Shown: one piece after another, positions 48,272 through 62,009 of the stretch
Position numbering within the stretch: the first letter of the stretch is position 1
Layout of the letters: each line of letters begins with the position of its first letter
Virus record (IMG/VR): IMGVR_UViG_2061766007_000327
Length of the DNA: 64,000 nt
Reading direction: 5' to 3' (one strand)
From: an uncultured virus (IMG/VR IMGVR_UViG_2061766007_000327)
Taxonomy: Duplodnaviria > Heunggongvirae > Uroviricota > Caudoviricetes
The notes under the pieces: generated by a model
What the model saw: only the letters and a program-made list of their open reading frames with translations
What the model was told of the DNA's origin: nothing
The model's database searches: none
Position numbers and translations under genes: made by a program

Positions 48272-48427
48272 ATGGACAAGAGAGAATTAAGGTTAGGTGA
48301 CGAGGTGCTCTGGAACGGGCGCGTTGCGGTTGTTGACACATTGACGCAGACGTGTGTCGCGTTGGTGTGCATGGATAATGACGACTACGTGATCGTGAGT
48401 TATGCCGACGTTCAGCGGAAGAATTAG
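48272..48427 (+). CDS. Small hypothetical protein (MDKRELRLGDEVLWNGR...)
   Basis: 51 aa ORF read by hand, below the track cutoff, overlapping the next gene. Confidence 0.55.
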   Translation: MDKRELRLGDEVLWNGRVAVVDTLTQTCVALVCMDNDDYVIVSYADVQRKN

Positions 48428-48860
48428 GGATCGCCGGGTGAGCATCGGCGGGAGGTATGAGGTCAGTGACCTGGGGGTCGTCTACAGTGACGGGATGCCC
48501 CTGGCTGCGATCGGCGGAGTCGGTGTGAACCTCGGCGGGAAGCGGGTGAAGATCGCGGAGCTGGTTGCCGGGGCTTTCCTAGAGAAGGAGGAGGGGAAGT
48601 GCTGGGTGCGGCACCGGAACGGGGATGTGCGGGACAACCGGGTCTGCAATCTGGAGTGGAGTGACGAGCGTGAGGAGCCGAGGGGGCGTAGGAGCACGGA
48701 GCGGGTTGTGCGTGCGTTGCGTTTCGACGGCGAGGTGGTCGGTCAGTGGCGGAGCGTCCGGGAGGCGAGTGATGCGAGTGGTGTGAAGGCTGAGGGGATC
48801 AGGGCTTGCCTGCGAGGTGCGAGGAGGAGCAGCGGCGGGTTGCTCTGGATGGAGTTGTGA
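48402..48860 (+). CDS. HNH endonuclease-like protein with NUMOD4-like and NUMOD1-like segments
   Basis: 'YEVSDLG.V', 'VRHRNGDVRDNRVCNLEW', and a C-terminal 'WRSVREAS...G.....I..CL.G....GG..W'. Confidence 0.8.
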   Translation: MPTFSGRIRDRRVSIGGRYEVSDLGVVYSDGMPLAAIGGVGVNLGGKRVKIAELVAGAFLEKEEGKCWVRHRNGDVRDNRVCNLEWSDEREEPRGRRSTERVVRALRFDGEVVGQWRSVREASDASGVKAEGIRACLRGARRSSGGLLWMEL

Positions 48861-49225: not shown

Positions 49226-49291
49226 GGGTGAGGTAGCTCAGTTGGTTAGAGCGCGGTAAGAGGTCGGAGGTTCGAGTCCTCCCCTTGCTCC
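49226..49291 (+). ncRNA. tRNA-like RNA lacking the anticodon arm
   Basis: GGGTGAGG-TA-GCTC-AGTTGGTTA-GAGC-GCGGTAA-GAGGTC-GGAGG-TTCGAGT-CCTCC-CCTTGCTC. D and T arms are canonical, but only 7 nt sit where the anticodon arm should be. Confidence 0.75.
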
Positions 49292-51881: not shown

Positions 51882-52540
51882 AGAACGCTTGGGACGGGAT
51901 ATGCAACGCTTATTTGAGGGCGTTTTGTAAGAAGCACCTGCTGGATATGAGCGAGGCTTACTGGGGGCACGATGATCCGGGCACGATTGCGTGCATCGAG
52001 GGTTTTTTCGTTGAGATGGATGTGATCCGTTATGATATTGACAACGATGTTGCTCCGGAGGTGTTCTGGCGATGGTACAATTACGACCTGGATATTTGCG
52101 AGCTGGAGGAGGATTTCCGTTATTATAAGGACGAGAAGGTTTTTATCCATATAAGTTACGCCAGTTTCTGTAAAGGTGCTCCGCTCCCTTATTCCTTGCA
52201 GGAAATTTCGGATATGAGGCGCGAAATTGCGGCTATGAAGGGTCCGGTAGACCACGGGAAGGAATATATAAAGATAATGTCGGGTATAGTCGGGACTGAC
52301 ATAACGGTGAGGAGTCGGAAAGCCCAGGTAACTTGGCCGAGATACCTTGTTATGTACCAGTTGAGGAAGGACGGGCTGTCGTTTCCGAAAATCGCACGCG
52401 TCTTCGGGGTGAATCATGCGACGGTGGTGCATGGGGTGAAGGGAGTGCAGGCTATGCTGGATATGCCGAGGATGTATCCCGATGAGATCAGGTTGTGGCA
52501 ACGTTTTCAAAAAATAATTAAAGATGAGCAAGTTTTCTGA
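51878..52540 (+). CDS. Protein with a C-terminal DnaA domain IV-like HTH
   Basis: 'SRK..V..PR...MY........SFP.IAR.FG.NHATVVHG.K'. Confidence 0.75.
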   Translation: MKNAWDGICNAYLRAFCKKHLLDMSEAYWGHDDPGTIACIEGFFVEMDVIRYDIDNDVAPEVFWRWYNYDLDICELEEDFRYYKDEKVFIHISYASFCKGAPLPYSLQEISDMRREIAAMKGPVDHGKEYIKIMSGIVGTDITVRSRKAQVTWPRYLVMYQLRKDGLSFPKIARVFGVNHATVVHGVKGVQAMLDMPRMYPDEIRLWQRFQKIIKDEQVF

Positions 52541-53009
52541 CAAAATCAAGACATTCTGGTTGTTCAATCTCCAGAATCCGGTAGTCCGTAAGGGGGAGGC
52601 CGGCGGTTTCAAATGGACATTCAGGCGTTACTGGCTGACGATAGAGACGGTCAGCGGCAATTTTAAGGCGCGGTTCACGGCGGCGGAGCATCCTTTCGGG
52701 TATCTGTTGACCGGTAAGGATAACTCGAACATTGAGGGTTACTGCCAGATGCTGTATGCGGTCGGGATGCTGCTGACCACGGACCAGGGGCTGGTGAACG
52801 ACATTACCAAGGCGTTCCAGAAGTACGACAAGAGAAGTACTCCGAAGACTGTCGAGGAAGACGAGGGCGAGGAGATCGCTGCAATCAAGGAAGTACAGGC
52901 TGTGCAGGAGCATATCGAGTTACCTAAGGCCGAGAGGAAGAAGAGGGAGAGGGATATCAACGGGCGTTTTGTTTCGGCTGTAAAAAAAGCAGAGAAACTT
53001 GCAGAATAG
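52524..53009 (+). CDS. Hypothetical protein
   Basis: 161 aa, overlapping the previous gene. Confidence 0.6.
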   Translation: MSKFSDKIKTFWLFNLQNPVVRKGEAGGFKWTFRRYWLTIETVSGNFKARFTAAEHPFGYLLTGKDNSNIEGYCQMLYAVGMLLTTDQGLVNDITKAFQKYDKRSTPKTVEEDEGEEIAAIKEVQAVQEHIELPKAERKKRERDINGRFVSAVKKAEKLAE

Positions 53010-53021
53010 CAAGATATTCTC

Positions 53022-53125
53022 TATTTTTGCACAGTAAGGTATGTGAGAGATACCGAGTGAAATTTTACAGCCCCTGTTAGTAGACGGTTGCTCTCACCTG
53101 CCGTTGAACGCGGGGGATTGTTTAT
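53022..53125 (+). promoter_or_regulatory. Promoter plus structured leader (kissing-loop hairpins) of an HNH gene
   Basis: TATTTTTG at 53022-53029. Loops GTGAGAG (53043-53049) and CTCTCAC (53091-53097) are complementary. Confidence 0.7.
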
Positions 53126-53130
53126 TATCC

Positions 53131-53703
53131 ATGGGGAAAGAAATTTGGAAACCGGTGGTCGGTTATGAGGGGCTATATGATGTAAGCAGCCTTGGACGAG
53201 TAAGAAGTTTAGGGAGAGTGATCGTGCAAAAAAACGGGAAAAGAATTAAGATTAGAGAGCGAATTCTTAAGCCGGCTATTCAGAATAGGGGTTATGAGTT
53301 CGTGTCTTTATCAAATTCTTTAGGGCAAAAATTAAAGCTTGTCCACCAGCTTGTAGGCAAGGCATTTATACCAAACCCGGATAATAAACCGTTTATAGAT
53401 CATATCAATGGCAACAGGAGGGACAACCGAGTTGAGAATTTGAGGTGGTGCACGCCTAAAGAGAACAATAACTTTGAGCTCGCGAGAAAGCACGCTTCGG
53501 ATGGTCTCCTAGGGAAAACCGGTTGGTTGTGCCCTAATTCTAAAAAGGTCAATCAATATACATTGGACGGTACTTTTATTAGAAGTTACTATGGCACTCG
53601 TGAGGCAAGTAGGGAAACTGGTATAAGAAATATATCACGAGCGTGCCTAAGCCCAACTAGGACAGCTGGCGGCTATATATGGAAATATGATAATATTAAG
53701 TAA
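53131..53703 (+). CDS. NUMOD4-HNH-NUMOD1 homing endonuclease
   Basis: 'EIWKPVVGYEGLYDVSSLGRVRS', 'IDHINGNRRDNRVENLRW', 'VNQYTLDG...AGGYIW'. Confidence 0.92.
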   Translation: MGKEIWKPVVGYEGLYDVSSLGRVRSLGRVIVQKNGKRIKIRERILKPAIQNRGYEFVSLSNSLGQKLKLVHQLVGKAFIPNPDNKPFIDHINGNRRDNRVENLRWCTPKENNNFELARKHASDGLLGKTGWLCPNSKKVNQYTLDGTFIRSYYGTREASRETGIRNISRACLSPTRTAGGYIWKYDNIK

Positions 53704-54107
53704 TATGAACCTCGAAATTATTCTAGATCGCATATTTGATGCGGAATGTGCAAGAAGGGCGGGTATGAATGACATGTATAACCAGATTCTTGCAAGATTA
53801 AACGGGCTATATCCGGATCTTAAAGATTATATCAGAAAGGCCATAGAGGTCTACGGGGAGGTAGGTGATTCGCTCACCGAGGCCAGAAGTCAGTATCTGA
53901 AGGAACATAGAAGTTCTTTAAAATTAAGGTATCGATGAATAAAAGAAAAAACCAAGGAGGTTATGAAGGATGTGCAGAAGGGGTCAGACAGTGATGTATA
54001 ACGGTGTCGAGTACAGGCTGACGTGGAAGGGAAGGCTATATGCGGCTTGGCTTTGCTTTTTGGAACGCATCAGAAAATAGTTATATCGATAACATTTTGT
54101 TAATTTT

Positions 54108-54656
54108 ATGGAAGATCAAAGGAACATTCATTACCGCGTGGGTGGGAAGCTCACTCACTGTGGTGTCGAGGTTCTTCCTGGCGGGAAGGACATCGAGAGA
54201 ATTATCATTGCTCGTATTGAATACAAGGAGAGCGAAATGATCAATGGTAGGACGGAGAACGGCGTATGGGTTGCACATTTTGCGCAGAACCCCTACACGT
54301 CGCTTCCGTTGATTCTTAATGCGACCAACCGGAAGAGGCTGGTTAAGTTATTCCCGGACTGTGACGGTTACATTGCAAGGCTAGAGAACGTGCCGGTAAG
54401 GCTGACCAAGGAGAAGACCCGTGACGTGCAGGACGGTGGGGAGACCTGGGGACTCAGAATCAGTAAAATTCCGGCTTCGCCGGAGGCTGCTGCGCCTCAG
54501 AAGAAGGTTATTACAGCCGATAAGGTCGATGTTATTATCGAATGGGCGAAAAATCAGGGCTTCGGTATTGATAATGTCGCAAAAATGTACGATTTTGCGG
54601 ACGATACCATCAAGAAGAAGATTAATGACGCCTTAATTGACGACTTGCCAGAATAG
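54108..54656 (+). CDS. Putative ssDNA-binding/annealing protein
   Basis: 'LPLILNATN...L......W/GLRI', directly upstream of a YqaJ exonuclease. Function inferred from synteny. Confidence 0.45.
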   Translation: MEDQRNIHYRVGGKLTHCGVEVLPGGKDIERIIIARIEYKESEMINGRTENGVWVAHFAQNPYTSLPLILNATNRKRLVKLFPDCDGYIARLENVPVRLTKEKTRDVQDGGETWGLRISKIPASPEAAAPQKKVITADKVDVIIEWAKNQGFGIDNVAKMYDFADDTIKKKINDALIDDLPE

Positions 54657-54658
54657 CT

Positions 54659-55387
54659 ATGGATAAGGAAACAAGGTGGTTAAAGAAAAGGCTGGGAATG
54701 ATTACTGCCAGCGAGCTGGGGAATATTACTTCTGCCAGCGGAAAGATTATTGACGGTAACTTAAGTTACATTAGGGCGAAGCGTTGGGAGCGGAAGCACG
54801 GCTTCTCGCATCCCGTAAGCGCAAGGGCTATGGAGATCGGCAACGAGCAGGAGCCGATGATTTTCGAGTGGTCGAAGGCTAATCTCGGGTTTAGTGAAAT
54901 CATTTATTCGAAGGATCTCGAGGAGATTCCGTTCTGGATTGCGACAGACTGCCCAGTAGGGGCCAGCCCTGATGCTTTCACTCCCGACAAGAGTATTGTC
55001 TTCGAGTTTAAGACTCTTGTGGGTGCGACGTCGATCGAATACTTCGCCGACGAGTACACCCCTTACGAGGAAAAGAAACTCGCAGTATGGAAAGACCACG
55101 GCGACCAACTACTTGGGCAGTTTATTTCCAACTCCGCCATCGAGGAGATCTGGCTGATTAAGTATATCTATCAGGACGATGATATCCTGCAGGATACGGA
55201 CAGCCCTTTGGCACCTTGGCGCGGTCTCGTCTTTAAGTTTGCCCGGAAGGATTTTGAAGCATCTATCGATGAGATGAAACAGAGGATTCTTCTTTTTGAC
55301 AAGATGATCGACGCGCCTCTCAGCCCGTCGGAGTTCAAGAAGGGCGAGTGGTATGTCGATGCGGGCGGTTTGTTAGTTAAAAAGTGA
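54659..55387 (+). CDS. YqaJ / lambda-exonuclease-family nuclease
   Basis: 'WL..R...ITAS', 'G.E.EP', 'GASPD', 'EFK', 'Q...Q'. Confidence 0.85.
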   Translation: MDKETRWLKKRLGMITASELGNITSASGKIIDGNLSYIRAKRWERKHGFSHPVSARAMEIGNEQEPMIFEWSKANLGFSEIIYSKDLEEIPFWIATDCPVGASPDAFTPDKSIVFEFKTLVGATSIEYFADEYTPYEEKKLAVWKDHGDQLLGQFISNSAIEEIWLIKYIYQDDDILQDTDSPLAPWRGLVFKFARKDFEASIDEMKQRILLFDKMIDAPLSPSEFKKGEWYVDAGGLLVKK

Positions 55388-55558
55388 TGCTATGGAAGAG
55401 CCCGGGAGTTACGTGATTAAGGACGATAATGGTAATGTACTAGCGAGAGTATATTATAATGGTCGGAAATTCCAAGTTTTTCGTCATCCTGCATGTTCTC
55501 TCGGGACGTTCTTCCATATCATACTGTTTCTAGAGGAGCAAGGATACGATTTACAGTT

Positions 55559-57167
55559 ATGAGTTCATCTCCGCTTAACCGGAAGACAGCGCCGCAGATC
55601 CTGCGGCTCTGTGCGTTATGCCTTAAAAATGGGGTGCTGGACGCCTATGAGATGGGCGATGATTATGCCGTTGAGGAATTCCTCCGTAAACATAAAGAGG
55701 GCTGGACATACGGTGTTCTAGGCGAGCCGGACGACTACGACTGGAAAATGTGGAGATTTTCTCTTTATAAATGGTGTAGAAGGAATGCTCTTTCTCAGTT
55801 TGCGGACAATTATCTGTACGAGGTAAAACGATATAACTATCTCTATTGCCCGATTCTGCTAAGCATGAGGTTCTATTTGATGGGGATTGAGGAATGGCTA
55901 TCTTATCCCAATCCCAGCGGAATAGAAATCTATCGGCAGAACACTAACCTGCACTGGTGGAAAAACGGGTCGGGGAGCAGAAAGATCACGAAGCGAGAGC
56001 TCATCATAGAAGCGCAGGGGATGGCTTATGAATACCGCAGGGTCCCCGAGGGGAAACGGGTCATCTCGTATTCCGTGCTGGATGAGTTCTGCTCGGCAAT
56101 ACACGATCTAACAAGCAAATATATCTATAAAAAAAGAATAATCATTGATGGAAAAGCAGTCCAAAACCTATAAAGTTCAACACTTGGAGCCTTCTACTCC
56201 TTGGTTGGGTTTTATCTTACTTCCATATGGGGAGTTTTACAGACCGACTAAGGATTTATTGAAGGCGAAGCCTGGCGATATCCTACGTTTTTTTCAGGGC
56301 TCGGATTATACCATAGAACGGGTAATGAAAATCCCGCAGGATAGCGTCTGCGATATGCTCTGCCGTATCGCATATGGTATACCGTGGGCGGTAGCACTTA
56401 AGAAATGGCAGTCGTACGCCATGCTCGAGGGGAATGACAGAAACGTTATTAGTTCAGATTATTGTTTGTGGGTAATATATGACACCAATCAACATTGACG
56501 CAAAATTCTCCGACAGAATTCTTATTCCCGGAGAGGCTATCCCGCCGGGTTGCCTTAGTGGAGTCTGTTTGAAAACGTCTGACGATGTAATTTGTCTGGC
56601 ATATTTTTTGTCCACTTGGGACAACGGCCAGCGTCGCTATTATGACGAGCTTGACCGCCTCTGCCATCGTCAATGGAACTGCAGTTTTGATCTGATAGAG
56701 ACGATGTGGCAGGGTAGGTTGGGACAAGTAGGCGACATCTGGCATTATATGGAACTTAAAAGGGTATAAAGATGAAGACAGAAGATTTGTTCAAGTATGG
56801 CGTGACCCCGAAGGAGGGCAAACGCAAGGGGGAACGGTTTAGGGTTCTCCAGATTTATCCCGACAGGCTGATTGTGACTGACTGGGAAACGGAGGAAAAG
56901 AATGAGATATTCTATCCCGGGACTTATGATTTGTGGCGCCCGGCGAAGACTCTTTTCGAGGATGACTCCATCAAGCCGACCTGGGGAAATCTCAAAAAGG
57001 CTGTCGAGGCTAATGGTTTGTCGGACGACACTTTGATTGTGACCGATCCTACGACATACGACATCTTCAGCCTCCTATCTCCGCGCTATAGGCTCGGGGC
57101 TAGAGCTCGCGTCGTGAAGCACACGAAGGACAACGGCGAGGAAGAGCCTGCTATAATGATTTATTGA
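55559..57167 (+). other. Four hypothetical genes (about 55559-56173, 56145-56498, 56479-56769, 56772-57167)
   Basis: Overlapping plus-strand ORFs with no recognisable motifs. Confidence 0.6.
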
Positions 57168-57321
57168 TGAACACTGCTATTGCTTTCCATTTGCTTGAAA
57201 AGGGAGAGGCGTGCTGCTTGTACGCCTCTATCCTTATTATGCGTGTAGGGGATCGGTGTTATATTTCTTTTGACGGGGAGAACTGGGAGGAGACCGACAG
57301 TGAGCTGATTAAGGAACAGAT

Positions 57322-57387
57322 ATGATTAAGCTCCGAGGATATCAGGAGGCTCTTATTGCAGAGGCTCGCCAAGCACTGGCAAATTAG
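57322..57387 (+). pseudogene. Stranded 5' remnant of the helicase gene (MIKLRGYQEALIAEARQALAN*)
   Basis: Similar to the helicase start at 58119 (MELRKYQQSLIEEARLAL) and includes the Q-motif LR.YQ. Confidence 0.8.
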
Positions 57388-57390
57388 ATA

Positions 57391-57520
57391 TTTGGTTTTT
57401 GAAAAATTCTTCTTATCTTTGCATAAACATTGTGTCGCAGACAATGAGTAGAAATATAACACCCAGAATGAGTAGTGCAGAGCTGCGACCTCTGTATGAA
57501 AGTTCTGGGATTGTTTTTTA
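57391..57520 (+). promoter_or_regulatory. Promoter plus structured kissing-loop leader of an HNH gene
   Basis: TTTG at 57391-57394 and TATCTTTG at 57414-57421. Loops GTCGCAG (57434-57440) and CTGCGAC (57483-57489) are complementary. Confidence 0.75.
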
Positions 57521-57525
57521 TAGAG

Positions 57526-58116
57526 ATGGAAGAAATTTGGAAGCCGATTGAAGGGTATGAAGGGAAGTATGAGATTAGTAATCTCGGCAGAGTAAACAGC
57601 CTAAATTACCTTGGGACTGGAAAGCCAAGAATAATGAAGCCATATAAGAACATTAGCAAGCATGGGAATGTTCCTTATCTTCAAGTAGACTTGTATAAGG
57701 ACGGTGTTGCGAGGTCTTTAAAAGTTCACTTTCTCGTTTGCCGGGCGTTTCATGGCTCGCGCCCTGCATCTATTAACGGCGACACTAATGTAGAGGCGAT
57801 GCACTTGAACGGTAATTCTCTCGATAATCGTGCCGAAAACCTTTCTTGGGGTAGGCACAGCGATAATGTCCGCGAGAAGACTTTTGTTGAAAAACAAGCC
57901 GCAGCACAAAGACGGAGGTGGGCTTCTGGAGAATATGAATATCAAAAGAAGGCCGTGGTTCAAATGTTGCCGAGTGGCGAGTTTGTTGCAAGGTATGCTT
58001 CTGCGTGGGATGCTCAACGAGTTACTGGTTGTAATCAAAGCGACATTTCTAAGCACTGTAGAGGAAAGAGGAAATGGCTAGTCGGTGGATTTCGATGGAA
58101 ATTCGAGAAGGAATAG
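57526..58116 (+). CDS. NUMOD4-HNH-NUMOD1 homing endonuclease
   Basis: 'EEIWKPIEGYEGKYEISNLGRV.S', 'MHLNGNSLDNRAENLSW', 'VGGFRWKF'. Confidence 0.9.
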   Translation: MEEIWKPIEGYEGKYEISNLGRVNSLNYLGTGKPRIMKPYKNISKHGNVPYLQVDLYKDGVARSLKVHFLVCRAFHGSRPASINGDTNVEAMHLNGNSLDNRAENLSWGRHSDNVREKTFVEKQAAAQRRRWASGEYEYQKKAVVQMLPSGEFVARYASAWDAQRVTGCNQSDISKHCRGKRKWLVGGFRWKFEKE

Positions 58117-58118
58117 TT

Positions 58119-59620
58119 ATGGAATTACGAAAATATCAGCAATCTTTAATTGAAGAAGCAAGGCTGGCCCTGTCGAGGCACAAGCACATCATAGTGCAGT
58201 CCCCGACAGGGTCAGGCTAACCGGCAAGGGCGTCCTTATCGGCTCGATGGCATCGATGAGCAAGTATCGTGTATTAATTCTGGCGCATAGCGAGGAAATC
58301 CTGGAGCAAGATGCAGGCCACGCTCGCAAATGGGGTATAGAAGTCGCAGAGGTCTTTGCGAAGACGCGCAAGATGCCAGAGACACGATGTGTAACAATGA
58401 TGGCGCAAACGCTTCGTCAAAGGCTGAAGAAGGTGGACTGGGCAGACTGGTTCTCTTCATTCGGGCTGATAATCTTAGACGAATGCCACAGGGCGGAATT
58501 CGACTTTGTCTTTGACAGCATCGACGACAAGGTCTTTGTTGTGGGGTTGTCTGCTTCCCCGGCGAGATATGGTCAGATGCGCCAATTAGGGCTGGATTAC
58601 GGGGCTGTTGTTATCGGTCCCCAGGTACAGGAGTTGATTGACGGCGGTTATCTCTGCCGCTGTAGGCTTTTCTCATTGGATGCACCCTCGCTGGAGGATG
58701 TGGAGTGGTCTTATGGCCGTGGTGACTACAATCTCAGCCAGATGGCCAGTAAATTCAAATCACGGGCTAGATATGTCGGAGCGGTCGAAAACTACCAACG
58801 AATCTGCCCGGGAGAGAAGACTCTGGTATTCTGTTGTTCCTCGGAGCAGACTATCGAACTGACAAAGGCTTTCTGCGACGCCGGTATTGACGCAAGATAC
58901 TGTCTGTCCGGCGATTTCGACGAAGATGAGGAGTACAGTGGCGATCGGAAAGGTGTCGTAGATGCCTTCGCGAGAGGAGATTTCCCCGTCCTCGTAAATT
59001 TCGGCTTATTTACGACGGGCATAGATATTCCGGACATCAAGGTCGTAATGCTTATGTTCTCCACGACATCGCTGGTGAAATACCTTCAGTGTCTCGGTAG
59101 AGCCTCGAGGATTGCGGACGGTAAGAATAATGAGTTCATCTGCCTCGATTTCGGGCGTAACTATGAGAGGTTGGGCAGATATGAGGATCGCCGGGAGTGG
59201 AGTGTCTGGCATAACACTTCTGCGGGTGGTGGCGTACCACCTACGAAGGAGTGCCCGCAGTGTGGGAGGCTTGTGCCAGTGTCGTGGACGGATTGTAAGT
59301 TTTGTGGATACCATTGGCCGACACAGCAGGAAACATACGTTGCGGAATTGCAGGAGGTGGTTGCCAGAGAGGATGACGAGACGATCGAGGGGTATGTCGC
59401 GAGGAAAAAACTGGAAGGGAAGAATAATAACTGGATCCTGGTTCAAGTCTGTATCAAGAATCCAGATAATCAGAAGGATGCTTTTATGCGGGCTATAGAA
59501 GTACTGAGAACAAAGCACGGGGCGAATATCAGCCCGAAATACTGGTATTTTTTTAAGAAGGAGATATTGAGCAAGGTTAAGGTTAAGAAAGAAGATAGCG
59601 ATTCTGTATTATGGAAATAG
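58119..59620 (+). CDS. SF2 DExH helicase with an 8-nt interruption in Walker A
   Basis: 58119-58217 encodes MELRKYQ...QSPTGSG followed by TAA. A different frame resumes with GGC AAG GGC at 58223. Downstream motifs: DECH, SASP, TGIDIP, QCLGRASR, and a CPQC/CKFC zinc finger. Confidence 0.85.
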
Positions 59621-61760: not shown

Positions 61761-61766
61761 TTTTCT

Positions 61767-61774
61767 TATCTTTG
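61767..61774 (+). promoter_or_regulatory. Bacteroidota -7 box
   Basis: TATCTTTG before ATG 61791. Confidence 0.6.
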
Positions 61775-61790
61775 CAAAAACCGTAAAGAT

Positions 61791-62009
61791 ATGATAATTA
61801 ATTTTACAGGCTCTCCTTACGACTACGCAAAGAGCCTTCCCAAAAAGGAACTGCGAGCTTTGATCCGCGAGTGTAAGAAGGCGCGAGAGCAGGATTACAA
61901 CGAGTGGACTGACCGTTGTAGAGTATGCTTTGAAAGGGTCGCATCGGGGGACGACGAGCAGGCTCGTTGGTGGAGTAACCACGCAGAATTTGTAAGACCC
62001 GGCGAATGA
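61791..62009 (+). CDS. Hypothetical protein
   Basis: 72 aa after a promoter box, overlapping the next gene by ATGA. Confidence 0.55.
   Translation: MIINFTGSPYDYAKSLPKKELRALIRECKKAREQDYNEWTDRCRVCFERVASGDDEQARWWSNHAEFVRPGE

What the first reader, a model, noticed from the sequence alone, without database searches (positions are those of the whole stretch)
57428..57520. Co-varying kissing-loop / loop-E RNA leader upstream of an HNH gene (copy 2)
Seen: immediately after TATCTTTG comes hairpin CATTGT-[GTCGCAG]-ACAATG. It is followed by CCCAGAA..AGTA-GTGCAGAG-[CTGCGAC]-CTCTGTAT-GAA..TTCTGGG and then ATTGTTTTTT. The two 7-nt loops are exact complements, and AGTA/GAA is a loop-E (sarcin-ricin-like) internal loop. 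The same architecture with different sequence precedes the HNH gene at 53131. Inference: this is a conserved attenuator or small RNA that limits expression of a toxic nuclease, loosely reminiscent of the P1 c4 and P4 CI leader RNAs.
Basis: partly seen in the sequence, partly recalled or inferred. Interest (0 to 1): 0.7.

Follow-up and report, generated by a model that had tools for sequence, protein, structure and literature searches.

The report
Kissing-loop leader RNA of homing-endonuclease cassettes
A previously undescribed, about 100-base folded RNA leader, locked by two loops that pair with each other, sits between a promoter and homing-endonuclease genes in a group of ruminant-gut phages and probably holds down expression of the nuclease.

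Summary
Both window copies (53030-53121 and 57428-57519) belong to a real RNA family. A covariance model built without copy 2 finds it at 62 bits.

I collected 37 distinct members from phage and metagenome contigs. All five helices covary. The 7-bp loop-loop pairing is Watson-Crick in all 252 cells, across ten different loop sequences. AGUA/GAA is invariant.

Rfam has no match, and my literature searches found no description.

The leader always follows a Bacteroidota-type promoter. It directly precedes an HNH endonuclease ORF of three different architectures in 35 of 37 cases. Its long hairpin is followed by a U-rich run and ends 8-12 nt before the AUG.

A contig from another sample lacks the whole promoter-leader-HNH block, so the leader is part of a mobile cassette.

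Function is inferred, not shown. Most likely it is a cis-acting, terminator-like, expression-limiting leader, with the kissing contact locking the fold. A stand-alone or self-assembling small RNA is not excluded.

Verdict: a new RNA family, and a new variant of a known kind (homing-endonuclease regulatory leaders and promoter-stem-loop cassettes).

The parts
57384..58225 (+). Cassette 2: promoter, leader, HNH gene and a second copy of the helicase 5' end. This is the block missing in a relative.
   Evidence: a 3321-nt contig of run X15 joins 57383 to 58226 with only 40 other letters between. A loose end of run X7 at 57383 shows the same.
57391..57421 (+). Promoter of copy 2: TTTG (57391-57394), 19 nt, TATCTTTG (57414-57421)
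   Evidence: The consensus TTTG/TAnnTTTG for Bacteroides sigma-ABfr is taken from passages of PMC7366714. The promoter is conserved in the family alignment.
57428..57446 (+). Hairpin 1 (P1) of copy 2, with 7-nt loop L1 GUCGCAG at 57434-57440
   Evidence: P1 is 93.1% paired, and 6 of 6 pairs show changes on both sides.
57447..57458 (+). A-rich single-stranded linker (AGUAGAAAUAUA)
   Evidence: GAAA is nearly invariant in the alignment.
57459..57514 (+). Hairpin 2 of copy 2. P2a is ACA/UGU (57459-61 with 57512-14). P2 is 57462-69 with 57502-09. The internal loop is AGUA (57471-74) / GAA (57498-500). P3 is 57475-82 with 57490-97. Loop L2 CUGCGAC is 57483-89, the exact complement of L1.
   Evidence: Alone, hairpin 2 folds at -22.5 kcal/mol.
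57515..57525 (+). U-rich run and spacer up to the start codon
57526..58116 (+). HNH homing-endonuclease gene 2 (NUMOD4 + HNH_3)
53022..53029 (+). -7 box TATTTTTG of copy 1
53038..53054 (+). Hairpin 1 of copy 1, with loop L1 GUGAGAG at 53043-53049
53066..53121 (+). Hairpin 2 of copy 1. P2a is ACA/UGU. P2 is CCCCUGU/GCGGGGG. The internal loop is AGUAG (53079-83) / UGAA (53105-08). P3 is 53084-90 with 53098-104. Loop L2 CUCUCAC is 53091-97.
   Evidence: -21.6 kcal/mol.
53131..53703 (+). HNH homing-endonuclease gene 1 (NUMOD4 + HNH_3 + NUMOD1)
52961..54085 (+). Replaceable block around copy 1
   Evidence: X5 replaces 52961-54085 by 1097 other letters. X15 joins 52963 to 54101.

Best explanation
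The element is the 5' leader of the mRNA of free-standing HNH homing-endonuclease genes. It travels with them as a promoter-leader-gene cassette among related Bacteroidota phages of the ruminant gut.

How the RNA is built:
- Transcription starts a few bases after a TTTG/TAnnTTTG promoter.
- The RNA first makes a short hairpin (P1, loop L1).
- After an A-rich linker it makes a long hairpin (P2a-P2, AGUA/GAA internal loop, P3, loop L2).
- L1 and L2 then form seven Watson-Crick pairs that lock the two hairpins together.

How I think it works (inferred):
- The long hairpin is strong and runs straight into a U-rich stretch that ends 8-12 nt before the AUG. I read it as a leaky intrinsic terminator (attenuator).
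- It also leaves the endonuclease with a poor, U-rich, A-poor initiation region.
- Only a fraction of transcripts, poorly translated, would then give nuclease, whatever lies upstream of the insertion site.

Shown here: the fold, its covariation, the promoter motif, the link to HNH genes, and cassette mobility.
Inferred: termination, low translation, and what the kissing contact does. My guess is that it speeds and stabilises the terminator fold and protects the 5' end.
For: Fold and covariation:
- On 37 distinct members, P1 is 93% paired, P2 93%, P3 91% and P2a 84%.
- 26 of 31 pairs change on both sides.
- The covariation score is 0.655 against 0.198 in shuffles, with 0 of 500 reaching it.
- RNAalifold independently predicts P1, P2 and P3.
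- The loop-loop helix is not part of the covariance model. It is paired in 252 of 252 cells, with 5 of 7 positions changing on both sides and no G-U. There are ten loop versions.
- L108 and L065 differ at three positions from TTTG to the end of P2a. Two of the three are the compensatory pair in L1 and L2.
- Many G-U pairs mean that only the + strand folds.

Terminator-like anatomy:
- Hairpin 2 has a mean of -21.3 kcal/mol (range -15.3 to -26.5).
- There are 5-8 U in the 10 nt after P2 in 37 of 37 members.
- All 28 members examined have at least 3 U in the first 4 nt after P2a. The AUG lies 8-12 nt further in 27 of 28.

Atypical initiation region:
- U frequency is 0.70-0.89 at each of positions -12 to -5, and A is at most 0.33 at -14 to -4.
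- In 49 other genes of the window, A is 0.47-0.63 at -14 to -12.
- Passages of PMC7366714 say that A at -3, -6 and -11 to -15 goes with efficient translation in Bacteroidetes.
- The same promoter at 61763 serves a resident gene through a short A-rich leader of about 15 nt, with no structure.

Link to homing endonucleases:
- 35 of 37 distinct leaders directly precede an HNH ORF: 29 NUMOD4-type, 4 phrog_374-type and 2 DUF723/phrog_953-type.
- The NUMOD4 call rests on Pfam for 5 of the 29, and on the alignment or the N-terminal motif for the rest.
- The proteins are 30-39% identical to one another, whereas the leaders are far more alike.

Mobility:
- A relative lacks 57384-58225.
- Cassettes occupy four sites of the replication module.

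Precedent: the T-even review PMC2988022 (passages read) describes a weak terminator in mobE that stops about 30% of transcripts, RNA hairpins that limit endonuclease translation, and a stable hairpin just upstream of the seg43(25) ribosome binding site.
Against: - There are no expression data. The one RNA run found is kept as contigs, which cannot show ends or levels. One of its contigs (57490-57717) crosses the U-run, as expected of read-through if it is RNA at all.
- The simple terminator scan did not call hairpin 2 of copy 2. In copy 1 it called only a different small pairing.
- The U-run is weak in some members (L117 UCUUACAG, W1 UUAUUAU).
- A strong terminator would starve the helicase gene that follows HNH 2 and is coupled to it. 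Termination would therefore have to be leaky.
- No conserved alternative (antiterminator) fold was found. The extended pairing seen in copy 1 is absent in copy 2.
- One member (L111) has lost hairpin 1 yet keeps an intact HNH gene.
- Two members carry the leader without an HNH gene (L059, L281).
- The constant spacing to the AUG could be inherited rather than selected.
Confidence: 0.45

Rival explanations
1. It is a stand-alone small RNA of about 95-100 nt, running from the promoter to the U-run. It acts in trans, or assembles with copies of itself 'hand in hand' (L1 of one molecule on L2 of the next). The HNH gene would be expressed only by read-through.
For: - The layout matches typical small-RNA genes: promoter, 5' hairpin, A-rich single-stranded linker, terminator-like hairpin and U-run.
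- Two mutually complementary, covarying loops in one RNA are also what phi29 pRNA uses for ring formation (recalled).
- The 11-13-nt linker is short for a coaxial intramolecular contact. This rests on my own rough geometry, not on a tool.
- In 7 records with two or more copies (18 copies), no record repeats a loop type.
Against: - The absence of repeated types is not significant (permutation p = 0.21). It is also confounded by the link between loop type and insertion site.
- No third site complementary to the loops stands out in the window. The heptamers occur 3-8 times on the + strand, with no extended match around any of them.
- The AUG follows within 8-12 nt, so the RNA is at least also an mRNA leader.
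- There is no evidence for a discrete small RNA.
Confidence: 0.2
2. It is a positive element: a 5' stabiliser and insulator. It protects the mRNA end and keeps the U/A-rich ribosome landing site free of pairing with whatever lies upstream, so that the endonuclease is expressed reliably at any insertion site.
For: - Hairpin 1 lies 3-15 nt after TTTG, so at or near the predicted 5' end.
- All G+C-rich parts are locked in helices, and the spacer and the first codons are unstructured.
- The cassette works at four different sites.
Against: - The initiation region lacks the A pattern of the phage's other genes.
- A resident gene uses the same promoter without any such leader.
- This reading does not explain the U-run right after a hairpin of about -21 kcal/mol.
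Confidence: 0.15
3. The conservation is mainly at the DNA level. The promoter-leader block would be a recombination module (like the PeSL cassettes of T4-type phages) or the landing pad into which HNH genes home. The RNA fold would be secondary.
For: - Nearly the same HNH gene stands behind different leader types (L053 type C against L046 type E; L047 against L067).
- One leader type stands before different HNH genes.
- A leader-only allele exists, fused exactly to the resident gene's initiation region.
- Site-3 cassettes also share a conserved 3' end: 7 of 9 complete cassettes, plus L058 for the coding part only.
- PeSLs are promoter plus stem-loop cassettes of about 100 bp that mediate such shuffling (PMC2839356, passages).
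Against: - DNA-level conservation does not predict compensatory changes in five helices, G-U pairs on one strand only, or ten exactly complementary loop pairs.
- At site 4 the allele without the HNH gene has no leader either.
- This rival can hold in addition to an RNA function, not instead of one.
Confidence: 0.1
4. Hairpin 2 is a processing site for a double-strand-specific or other RNase (compare the T7 early RNase III sites, recalled). Processing would cut the HNH mRNA out of read-through transcripts.
For: It has a lower stem of about 10 bp, an internal loop, an upper stem of 7-8 bp and an intergenic position in an operon.
Against: - The cassette has its own promoter directly upstream.
- The internal loop is a specific invariant motif rather than a generic loop.
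- The kissing contact is left unexplained.
- There are no data on RNA ends.
Confidence: 0.05

Closest known systems
Regulatory RNA structures of T-even homing-endonuclease genes (I-TevI, mobE, segB hairpins; the mobE internal terminator; the seg43(25) hairpin). Source: review PMC2988022, passages read.
   Same: - RNA structure just upstream of, or inside, a phage homing-endonuclease gene, thought to hold expression down.
- mobE has a weak terminator that stops about 30% of transcripts.
- seg43(25) has a very stable hairpin just upstream of the ribosome binding site without covering it, as here.
   Different: - Those are simple hairpins, most of which sequester the ribosome binding site and are bypassed by an internal late promoter.
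- Here the AUG is free, the promoter lies upstream of the whole fold, the fold has five helices with a loop-loop contact, and it forms a sequence family shared by three HNH architectures.
PeSL (promoter-early stem-loop) mobile regulatory cassettes of T4-type phages. Sources: PMC2839356, passages; PMC4122927, abstract.
   Same: - A block of about 100 bp with a host-type promoter plus a terminator-like stem-loop, placed before variable accessory genes.
- Several copies per genome.
- Modular exchange of the genes behind it.
   Different: - PeSL stem-loops lie in various positions relative to the promoter and are simple G/C hairpins.
- No covarying multi-helix RNA fold or loop-loop pairing is described for them.
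- They precede ORFans in general, not homing endonucleases in particular.
P1/P7 c4 antisense RNA and P4 CI RNA (recalled; Rfam families searched)
   Same: - Phage leader-derived RNAs whose hairpin loops pair with complementary sites in the same transcript.
- Loop and target change together between related phages.
   Different: - Rfam gives no match.
- The partners of c4 and CI lie at the target gene's ribosome binding site or cause termination at a distance.
- Here the two complementary loops are the two hairpins of one compact leader.
- Those hosts are Proteobacteria.
   Same: - Seven-nucleotide loops that pair over all seven bases (ColE1).
- Two loops of one RNA that are complementary to each other and covary among relatives (pRNA).
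   Different: - ColE1 loops lie on two RNAs made from opposite strands, so their complementarity is automatic.
- pRNA serves a packaging motor and pairs between molecules.
- Whether pairing here is within or between molecules is unknown.
HEARO / omega-RNA of IscB (an HNH-associated RNA in Rfam)
   Same: A structured RNA found next to an HNH-domain gene.
   Different: - Rfam gives no match.
- IscB is a large RuvC-HNH, RNA-guided nuclease.
- The genes here are small protein-guided homing endonucleases of the I-HmuI kind.
- The variable loops pair with each other, not with a target.

Membership tests
Any Rfam 15 family | Match to a covariance model | tested here: not met
   At gathering thresholds over the whole window, only a tRNA hit at 49227-49290. 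At E <= 10 on 52900-57700, three weak matches, none on either leader.
C4 antisense RNA (P1/P7) | Loops complementary to sites at the ribosome binding site of the regulated gene | tested here: not met
   The partner of L1 is L2, inside the leader, with its 3' end 36 nt before the AUG. No further extended match to either loop in the window.
C4 antisense RNA (P1/P7) | Excised from the leader as a small RNA | not testable with these tools
   Only contigs of one RNA run were available.
T-even type RBS-sequestering hairpin of homing-endonuclease genes | Start codon or ribosome binding site lies inside the helix | tested here: not met
   The helix ends 8-12 nt upstream of the AUG in 27 of 28 members. 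The AUG is unpaired in the copy 2 fold.
Intrinsic terminator / attenuator | Stable G+C-closed hairpin directly followed by a U-rich run | tested here: met
   Hairpin 2 has a mean of -21.3 kcal/mol. There are 5-8 U in the next 10 nt in 37 of 37 members. All 28 examined have at least 3 U in the first 4 nt after P2a. The simple scan tool did not call it.
Intrinsic terminator / attenuator | Transcripts end in the U-run | not testable with these tools
   No raw RNA reads were available.
Intrinsic terminator / attenuator | Conserved alternative (antiterminator) fold | tested here: inconclusive
   An extended hairpin 1 - hairpin 2 duplex is possible in copy 1 but not in copy 2. It was not examined systematically.
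PeSL-like mobile regulatory cassette | Conserved promoter plus stem-loop block before variable genes, several per genome | tested here: met
   2 copies in the window. 1-4 copies in 12 other records, with 4 and 3 in the two richest. The HNH proteins are 30-39% identical behind near-identical leaders.
PeSL-like mobile regulatory cassette | Exchange of the gene behind the block by recombination | tested here: inconclusive
   Mosaic combinations and a leader-only allele fit this. No recombination product was observed directly.
Sarcin-ricin / loop E (bulged-G) motif | 5'-AGUA-3' opposite 5'-GAA-3' between two helices | tested here: met
   AGUA and GAA are present in 37 of 37 members. The flanking pair G79-U101 is G-U in 33, G-C in 3 and A-U in 1.
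Sarcin-ricin / loop E (bulged-G) motif | S-turn geometry | not testable with these tools
   No RNA 3D tool or probing data were available.
   252 of 252 cells are paired, across ten versions.
   Covariation cannot tell pairing within a molecule from pairing between molecules.
I-HmuI-like HNH homing endonuclease (the genes behind the leader) | NUMOD4 + HNH_3 (+ NUMOD1/3) domains | tested here: met
   Pfam: 53131-53703 has NUMOD4 2e-15, HNH_3 4.8e-12 and NUMOD1. 57526-58116 has NUMOD4 6.7e-12 and HNH_3 5.2e-06. L273, L280 and L072 also match.

The most novel reading that the evidence does not exclude
The two complementary loops do not close the RNA on itself. They join leader RNAs to each other hand in hand (L1 of one on L2 of the next), as in phi29 pRNA. 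The ten loop versions would then be orthogonal 'codes' that keep the RNAs of different cassettes in one phage, or of competing phages in one cell, from mixing. The result would be a self-assembling, or incompatibility-type, RNA carried by selfish endonuclease cassettes.
Probability: 0.12. Interest if true: 0.85.

Novelty: new variant of a known kind. Interest (0 to 1): 0.6.

Why it matters
Homing endonucleases spread in phage populations and reshape genes. How they are kept at tolerable levels is known mainly from T4-type phages of Proteobacteria.

Here a distinct RNA solution appears in phages of Bacteroidota, a phylum without Shine-Dalgarno-led initiation and with few known cis-regulatory RNAs. 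It is a compact leader locked by a seven-base-pair loop-loop contact. Three different HNH endonuclease architectures share it, and it moves with them.

The family gives an unusually clean natural series of ten compensatory kissing-loop variants on a nearly constant scaffold. That makes it ready material for testing how such contacts affect termination, translation or assembly.

If it works as a portable dampener and insulator of expression, it could also serve as a genetic part for Bacteroides engineering.

Tried and rejected
- **Known Rfam family:** rejected.
- **Cultured phages:** no match by megablast over 52000-59000 or by blastn with the leader.
- **Bacterial genomes:** the family pattern gave 15 loci among species-representative genomes. 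None is a member by the model.
- **Leader as a general feature of NUMOD4-HNH genes:** rejected. 0 of 80 loci of relatives in other viral contigs match model R2 (default filters, so weak matches could be lost).
- **More copies in the window:** none beyond the two (filters off). The third HNH gene (48402-48860) has no leader.
- **A third target site for the loops in the window:** only 3-8 scattered occurrences of each heptamer on the + strand, with no extended match around any of them.
- **Selection for different loop types within a genome:** no repeats in 7 records, but permutation p = 0.21 and the test is confounded by site.
- **Coding leader peptide:** an ORF across copy 2 (57399-57551) is not kept in copy 1, where AUG is followed at once by UGA (read by eye).
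- **K-turn reading of the internal loop:** rejected by eye. There are no tandem G-A/A-G steps.
- **RNA evidence:** run X20 (contigs) covers 57159-57385 and 57490-57717 but not 57386-57489. Contigs show neither ends nor levels, so I draw nothing from it.
- **Earlier findings of this scan:** none for this sequence or genome.
- **Whole genome:** none is held for the window.
- **First pattern scan:** 39 of 45 loci were chance matches, judged by eye.
- **Literature:** searches with 'homing endonuclease / kissing loop / phage / leader' and 'HNH endonuclease / RNA motif / covariation / bacteriophage / Bacteroid', plus term look-ups in two motif-discovery papers, found no description. Supplementary motif tables of those papers were not read and could hold it.

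Full report
**1. The observation**

- TATCTTTG at 57414-57421.
- Hairpin 1 at 57428-57446, with loop GUCGCAG.
- Outer stem CCCAGAAU/GUUCUGGG.
- AGUA (57471-57474) opposite GAA (57498-57500).
- Inner stem 57475-57482 with 57490-57497, and loop CUGCGAC.
- AUUGUUUUUU at 57510-57519.

The HNH gene starts at 57526. The copy before the HNH gene at 53131 has the same plan with other letters, and its loops are GUGAGAG/CUCUCAC.

RNAfold returns the described fold for copy 2: -30.7 kcal/mol, z -3.62, 0 of 200 shuffles as good. For copy 1 the single-sequence optimum is instead a nested fold that pairs the same two loops, and it is not significant alone (z -1.41).

**2. It is a family**

I built a model (R1) from copy 1 and three foreign sequences. 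It finds copy 2 at 62.4 bits (E 7e-15) and nothing else in the window above 11 bits.

Members found, as judged by the models:

| Search | Loci returned | Members |
|---|---|---|
| Viral contigs, pattern 1 | 45 | 6 (by eye) |
| Viral contigs, pattern 2 | 25 | 19 |
| Viral contigs, pattern 3 | 33 (14 new ones searched) | 1 |
| Viral contigs, pattern 4 | 20 (10 new ones searched) | 2 |
| Metagenome contigs | 46 | 26 |
| Bacterial genomes | 15 | 0 |
| Whole-record searches, 12 viral records | - | 7 further copies |

The final alignment A6 holds 38 matches, of which 37 are distinct.

**3. The structure**

| Helix | Cells paired | Pairs changed on both sides |
|---|---|---|
| P1 | 93.1% | 6 of 6 |
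| Loop-loop helix | 100% (252 of 252) | 5 of 7 |
| P2a (ACA/UGU next to the U-run) | 83.8% | 3 of 3 |
| P2 | 93.4% | 6 of 7 |
| P3 | 90.7% | 6 of 7 |

- Overall, 93.5% of 1132 cells are paired, against 69.5% in shuffles (0 of 500 reach it) and 39-52% when partners are slid.
- The alignment was fitted to the nested helices, which favours them. RNAalifold on the earlier alignment predicts the same P1, P2 and P3.
- The loop-loop helix is not part of the model, so it is an independent test. Taken alone on the earlier set, it is 100% paired against 77.9% in shuffles and 25-59% slid.
- It contains no G-U pair and no mismatch. The nested helices hold many G-U pairs, so the folding strand is the + strand, as RNA.

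Ten loop versions occur, each with its exact complement in L2:

GUCGCAG, GUGAGAG, GUGGAAG, GUGUGAG, GUUGCAG, GGUCGAG, AUGCGAG, GUACGAG, GGUCCAG, GGACCAG.

Many rows are close relatives, so cells are not independent events. Still, ten types need at least nine switches. L108 and L065 differ at three positions from TTTG to the end of P2a, and two of those three are the compensatory pair.

AGUA and GAA are invariant in 37 of 37. The adjoining G-U pair changes to G-C in three members and to A-U in one. This fits the sequence signature of a sarcin-ricin / loop E motif. Its geometry cannot be tested here.

**4. Context**

- The window is a phage. The stretch annotated (48-64 kb) is a replication module with primase, helicase, C5 methylase and VRR-NUC nuclease; the upstream 48 kb was not annotated.
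- The nearest cultured relatives of the helicase are Parabacteroides, Nonlabens and Flavobacterium phages, at 44.6% identity or below.
- Each leader follows TTTG-N19/20-TAnnTTTG. This is the Bacteroides sigma-ABfr promoter according to passages of PMC7366714.
- Contigs of three laid DNA runs, from bovine, goat and unspecified animal gut, carry long pieces of the region.
- Of the 37 distinct leaders, 29 precede NUMOD4-type HNH genes. Pfam supports five of these. The rest rest on the 14-sequence alignment A5 or on the N-terminal EIWK..GYEG motif.
- Four precede phrog_374-type HNH genes and two precede DUF723/phrog_953-type HNH genes.
- Two have no HNH gene: L059 has a 69-aa resident gene, and L281 has no ORF.
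- The HNH proteins are only 30-39% identical to that of copy 2 (71% for its near-twin L061).
- Conversely, 0 of 80 other viral loci that encode relatives of these HNH proteins carry the leader.

The leader is therefore a property of this phage group's endonuclease cassettes, not of the protein family.

**5. Mobility**

- A contig of run X15 joins window 57383 to 58226 with 40 other letters. Run X7 shows the same break.
- By my hand translation, the 40 letters encode KHRHIIVQSPTGSG in frame with the flanks. This is the uninterrupted helicase.
- Cassette 2 (57384-58225) therefore brought the promoter, the leader, the HNH gene and a second, recoded copy of the first 33 helicase codons. The recipient's own first 20 codons remain, followed by a 21st codon and a stop, at 57322-57387.
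- Around copy 1, runs X5 and X15 carry other sequence between about 52960 and 54100.
- By tblastn of window proteins on the member loci, the cassettes occupy four sites: after the DUF6371 gene, after gene 52524-53009, before the helicase, and after the helicase.
- Records hold 1-4 copies. G001 has four and G002 has three.
- Near-identical HNH genes stand behind different leader types, and one leader type stands before different HNH genes.
- L059 has the leader fused exactly to the initiation region of the resident gene that follows the HNH gene in L053 and L058.

**6. Mechanism**

Shown: a strong hairpin 2 (mean -21.3 kcal/mol) is followed in every member by a U-rich run, with 5-8 U in 10 nt. 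The AUG lies 8-12 nt after the helix in 27 of 28 members.

The initiation region is U-rich (0.70-0.89 at -12 to -5) and A-poor. The other genes of the phage show the A-rich pattern that is linked to efficient translation in this phylum. A resident gene uses the same promoter with a short A-rich leader.

Inferred: the leader is a leaky terminator and weak initiation region that limits and standardises endonuclease output. The kissing contact stabilises the fold.

This matches what is known for T-even endonuclease genes in kind, though not in form (PMC2988022, passages).

Against it:
- There are no expression data.
- Strong termination would be polar on the coupled helicase.
- One member lacks hairpin 1.
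- No conserved alternative fold was found.

Whether the loops pair within one RNA or between RNAs cannot be told from covariation. My rough geometry makes the 11-13-nt linker tight for a coaxial intramolecular complex. This is not a tool result.

**7. Comparison and novelty**

There is no Rfam match. Two literature searches and two paper look-ups found no description, but supplementary motif lists were not read.

The closest known things are:
- the T-even endonuclease hairpins and terminators;
- the PeSL promoter-stem-loop cassettes (PMC2839356, passages; PMC4122927, abstract);
- more loosely, P1 c4, ColE1 kissing loops and phi29 pRNA (all three recalled).

It fails the defining tests for c4 and for RBS-sequestering hairpins. 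It meets the anatomical tests for an intrinsic terminator and for a PeSL-like cassette.

I file it as a new RNA family that is a new variant of a known kind. Interest is 0.6: the structure is well supported, the natural series of kissing-loop variants is unusual and the link to selfish endonucleases is clear, but the spread is narrow and the function untested.

Noticed in passing
window 58119-58260: The helicase gene behind HNH 2 is interrupted inside its Walker A motif. The reading MELRKYQQ...SPTGSG stops at TAA (58218-58220), and the frame of the 457-aa ORF resumes with KGVLIGS at 58226. Relatives read ...PTGSGKGVLIGS without a break, so the window has 8 extra bases. The local text is GGC TAA CC GGC AAG: a Gly codon followed by a stop, then the same Gly codon 8 nt on. 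This is the pattern of a translational hop, as in T4 gene 60 (recalled). A contig of another study (X5, 57405-58250, 2 differences, no gaps) has the same text, so it is not a one-off assembly error.
   Followed up: partly
window 57322-57387: A remnant of the recipient's helicase 5' end (MIKLRGYQEALIAEARQALAN, then a stop) lies just upstream of cassette 2. It overlaps the stop of the preceding ORF (ATGA). The cassette carries a second copy of the same codons, divergent at the DNA level, after the HNH stop (TAG TT ATG).
   Followed up: partly
L059:1446-1779 (also L125, L134): A leader-only allele: a promoter and complete leader (loop type GUUGCAG), followed after a U8 run by a resident 69-aa gene instead of an HNH gene. 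The junction lies exactly where HNH-bearing relatives resume.
   Followed up: partly
L111:859-956: A member with the promoter, hairpin 2 (loop CUCGACC) and an intact NUMOD4-type HNH gene, but no hairpin 1. No complementary heptamer occurs in the 1.8-kb locus.
   Followed up: partly
L053, L068, L064, L047, L046, L067, L062 (the 30 nt before and about 25 nt after the HNH stop): Cassettes inserted after the helicase share a conserved 3' end: the last codons ...SSPKLF, TAG, then GCA(C/T)GG..TTTGAAGG. They share it although their HNH cores differ. This holds for 7 of 9 complete cassettes. L058 keeps only the coding part, and L070 lacks it.
   Followed up: partly
window 61763-61793: The same promoter text as copy 2 (TTCTTATCTTTGCA) drives a resident 72-aa ORF through a short A-rich leader of about 15 nt, without any structure.
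   Followed up: yes
window 48402-48860 and 49227-49290: A third HNH gene without NUMOD4 has no such leader. Rfam's tRNA model matches 49227-49290 (43.6 bits, 64 nt), but ARAGORN finds no tRNA in the window.
   Followed up: no
L246:5-90, L254:678-748, L257:662-747: Weak model matches (13-17 bits) at the ends of three contigs of one sample. In the one alignment printed (L257) it is a short hairpin CCCCCA..AGUAG..UGAAA..UGGGGG with the same internal-loop letters but no hairpin 1 and a tiny upper stem. The other two were not inspected. Possibly unrelated.
   Followed up: no
window 53038-53104: In copy 1, and in relatives with its loop type, the stems of hairpins 1 and 2 are also partly complementary. 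RNAfold therefore prefers one long duplex between them. Copy 2 lacks this.
   Followed up: partly
run X15 contigs at window 53038-53123: Loose ends show contigs in which only the leader core matches copy 1. Upstream is another promoter text, and downstream is an A-rich sequence without an early ATG. This may be another leader without an HNH gene.
   Followed up: no
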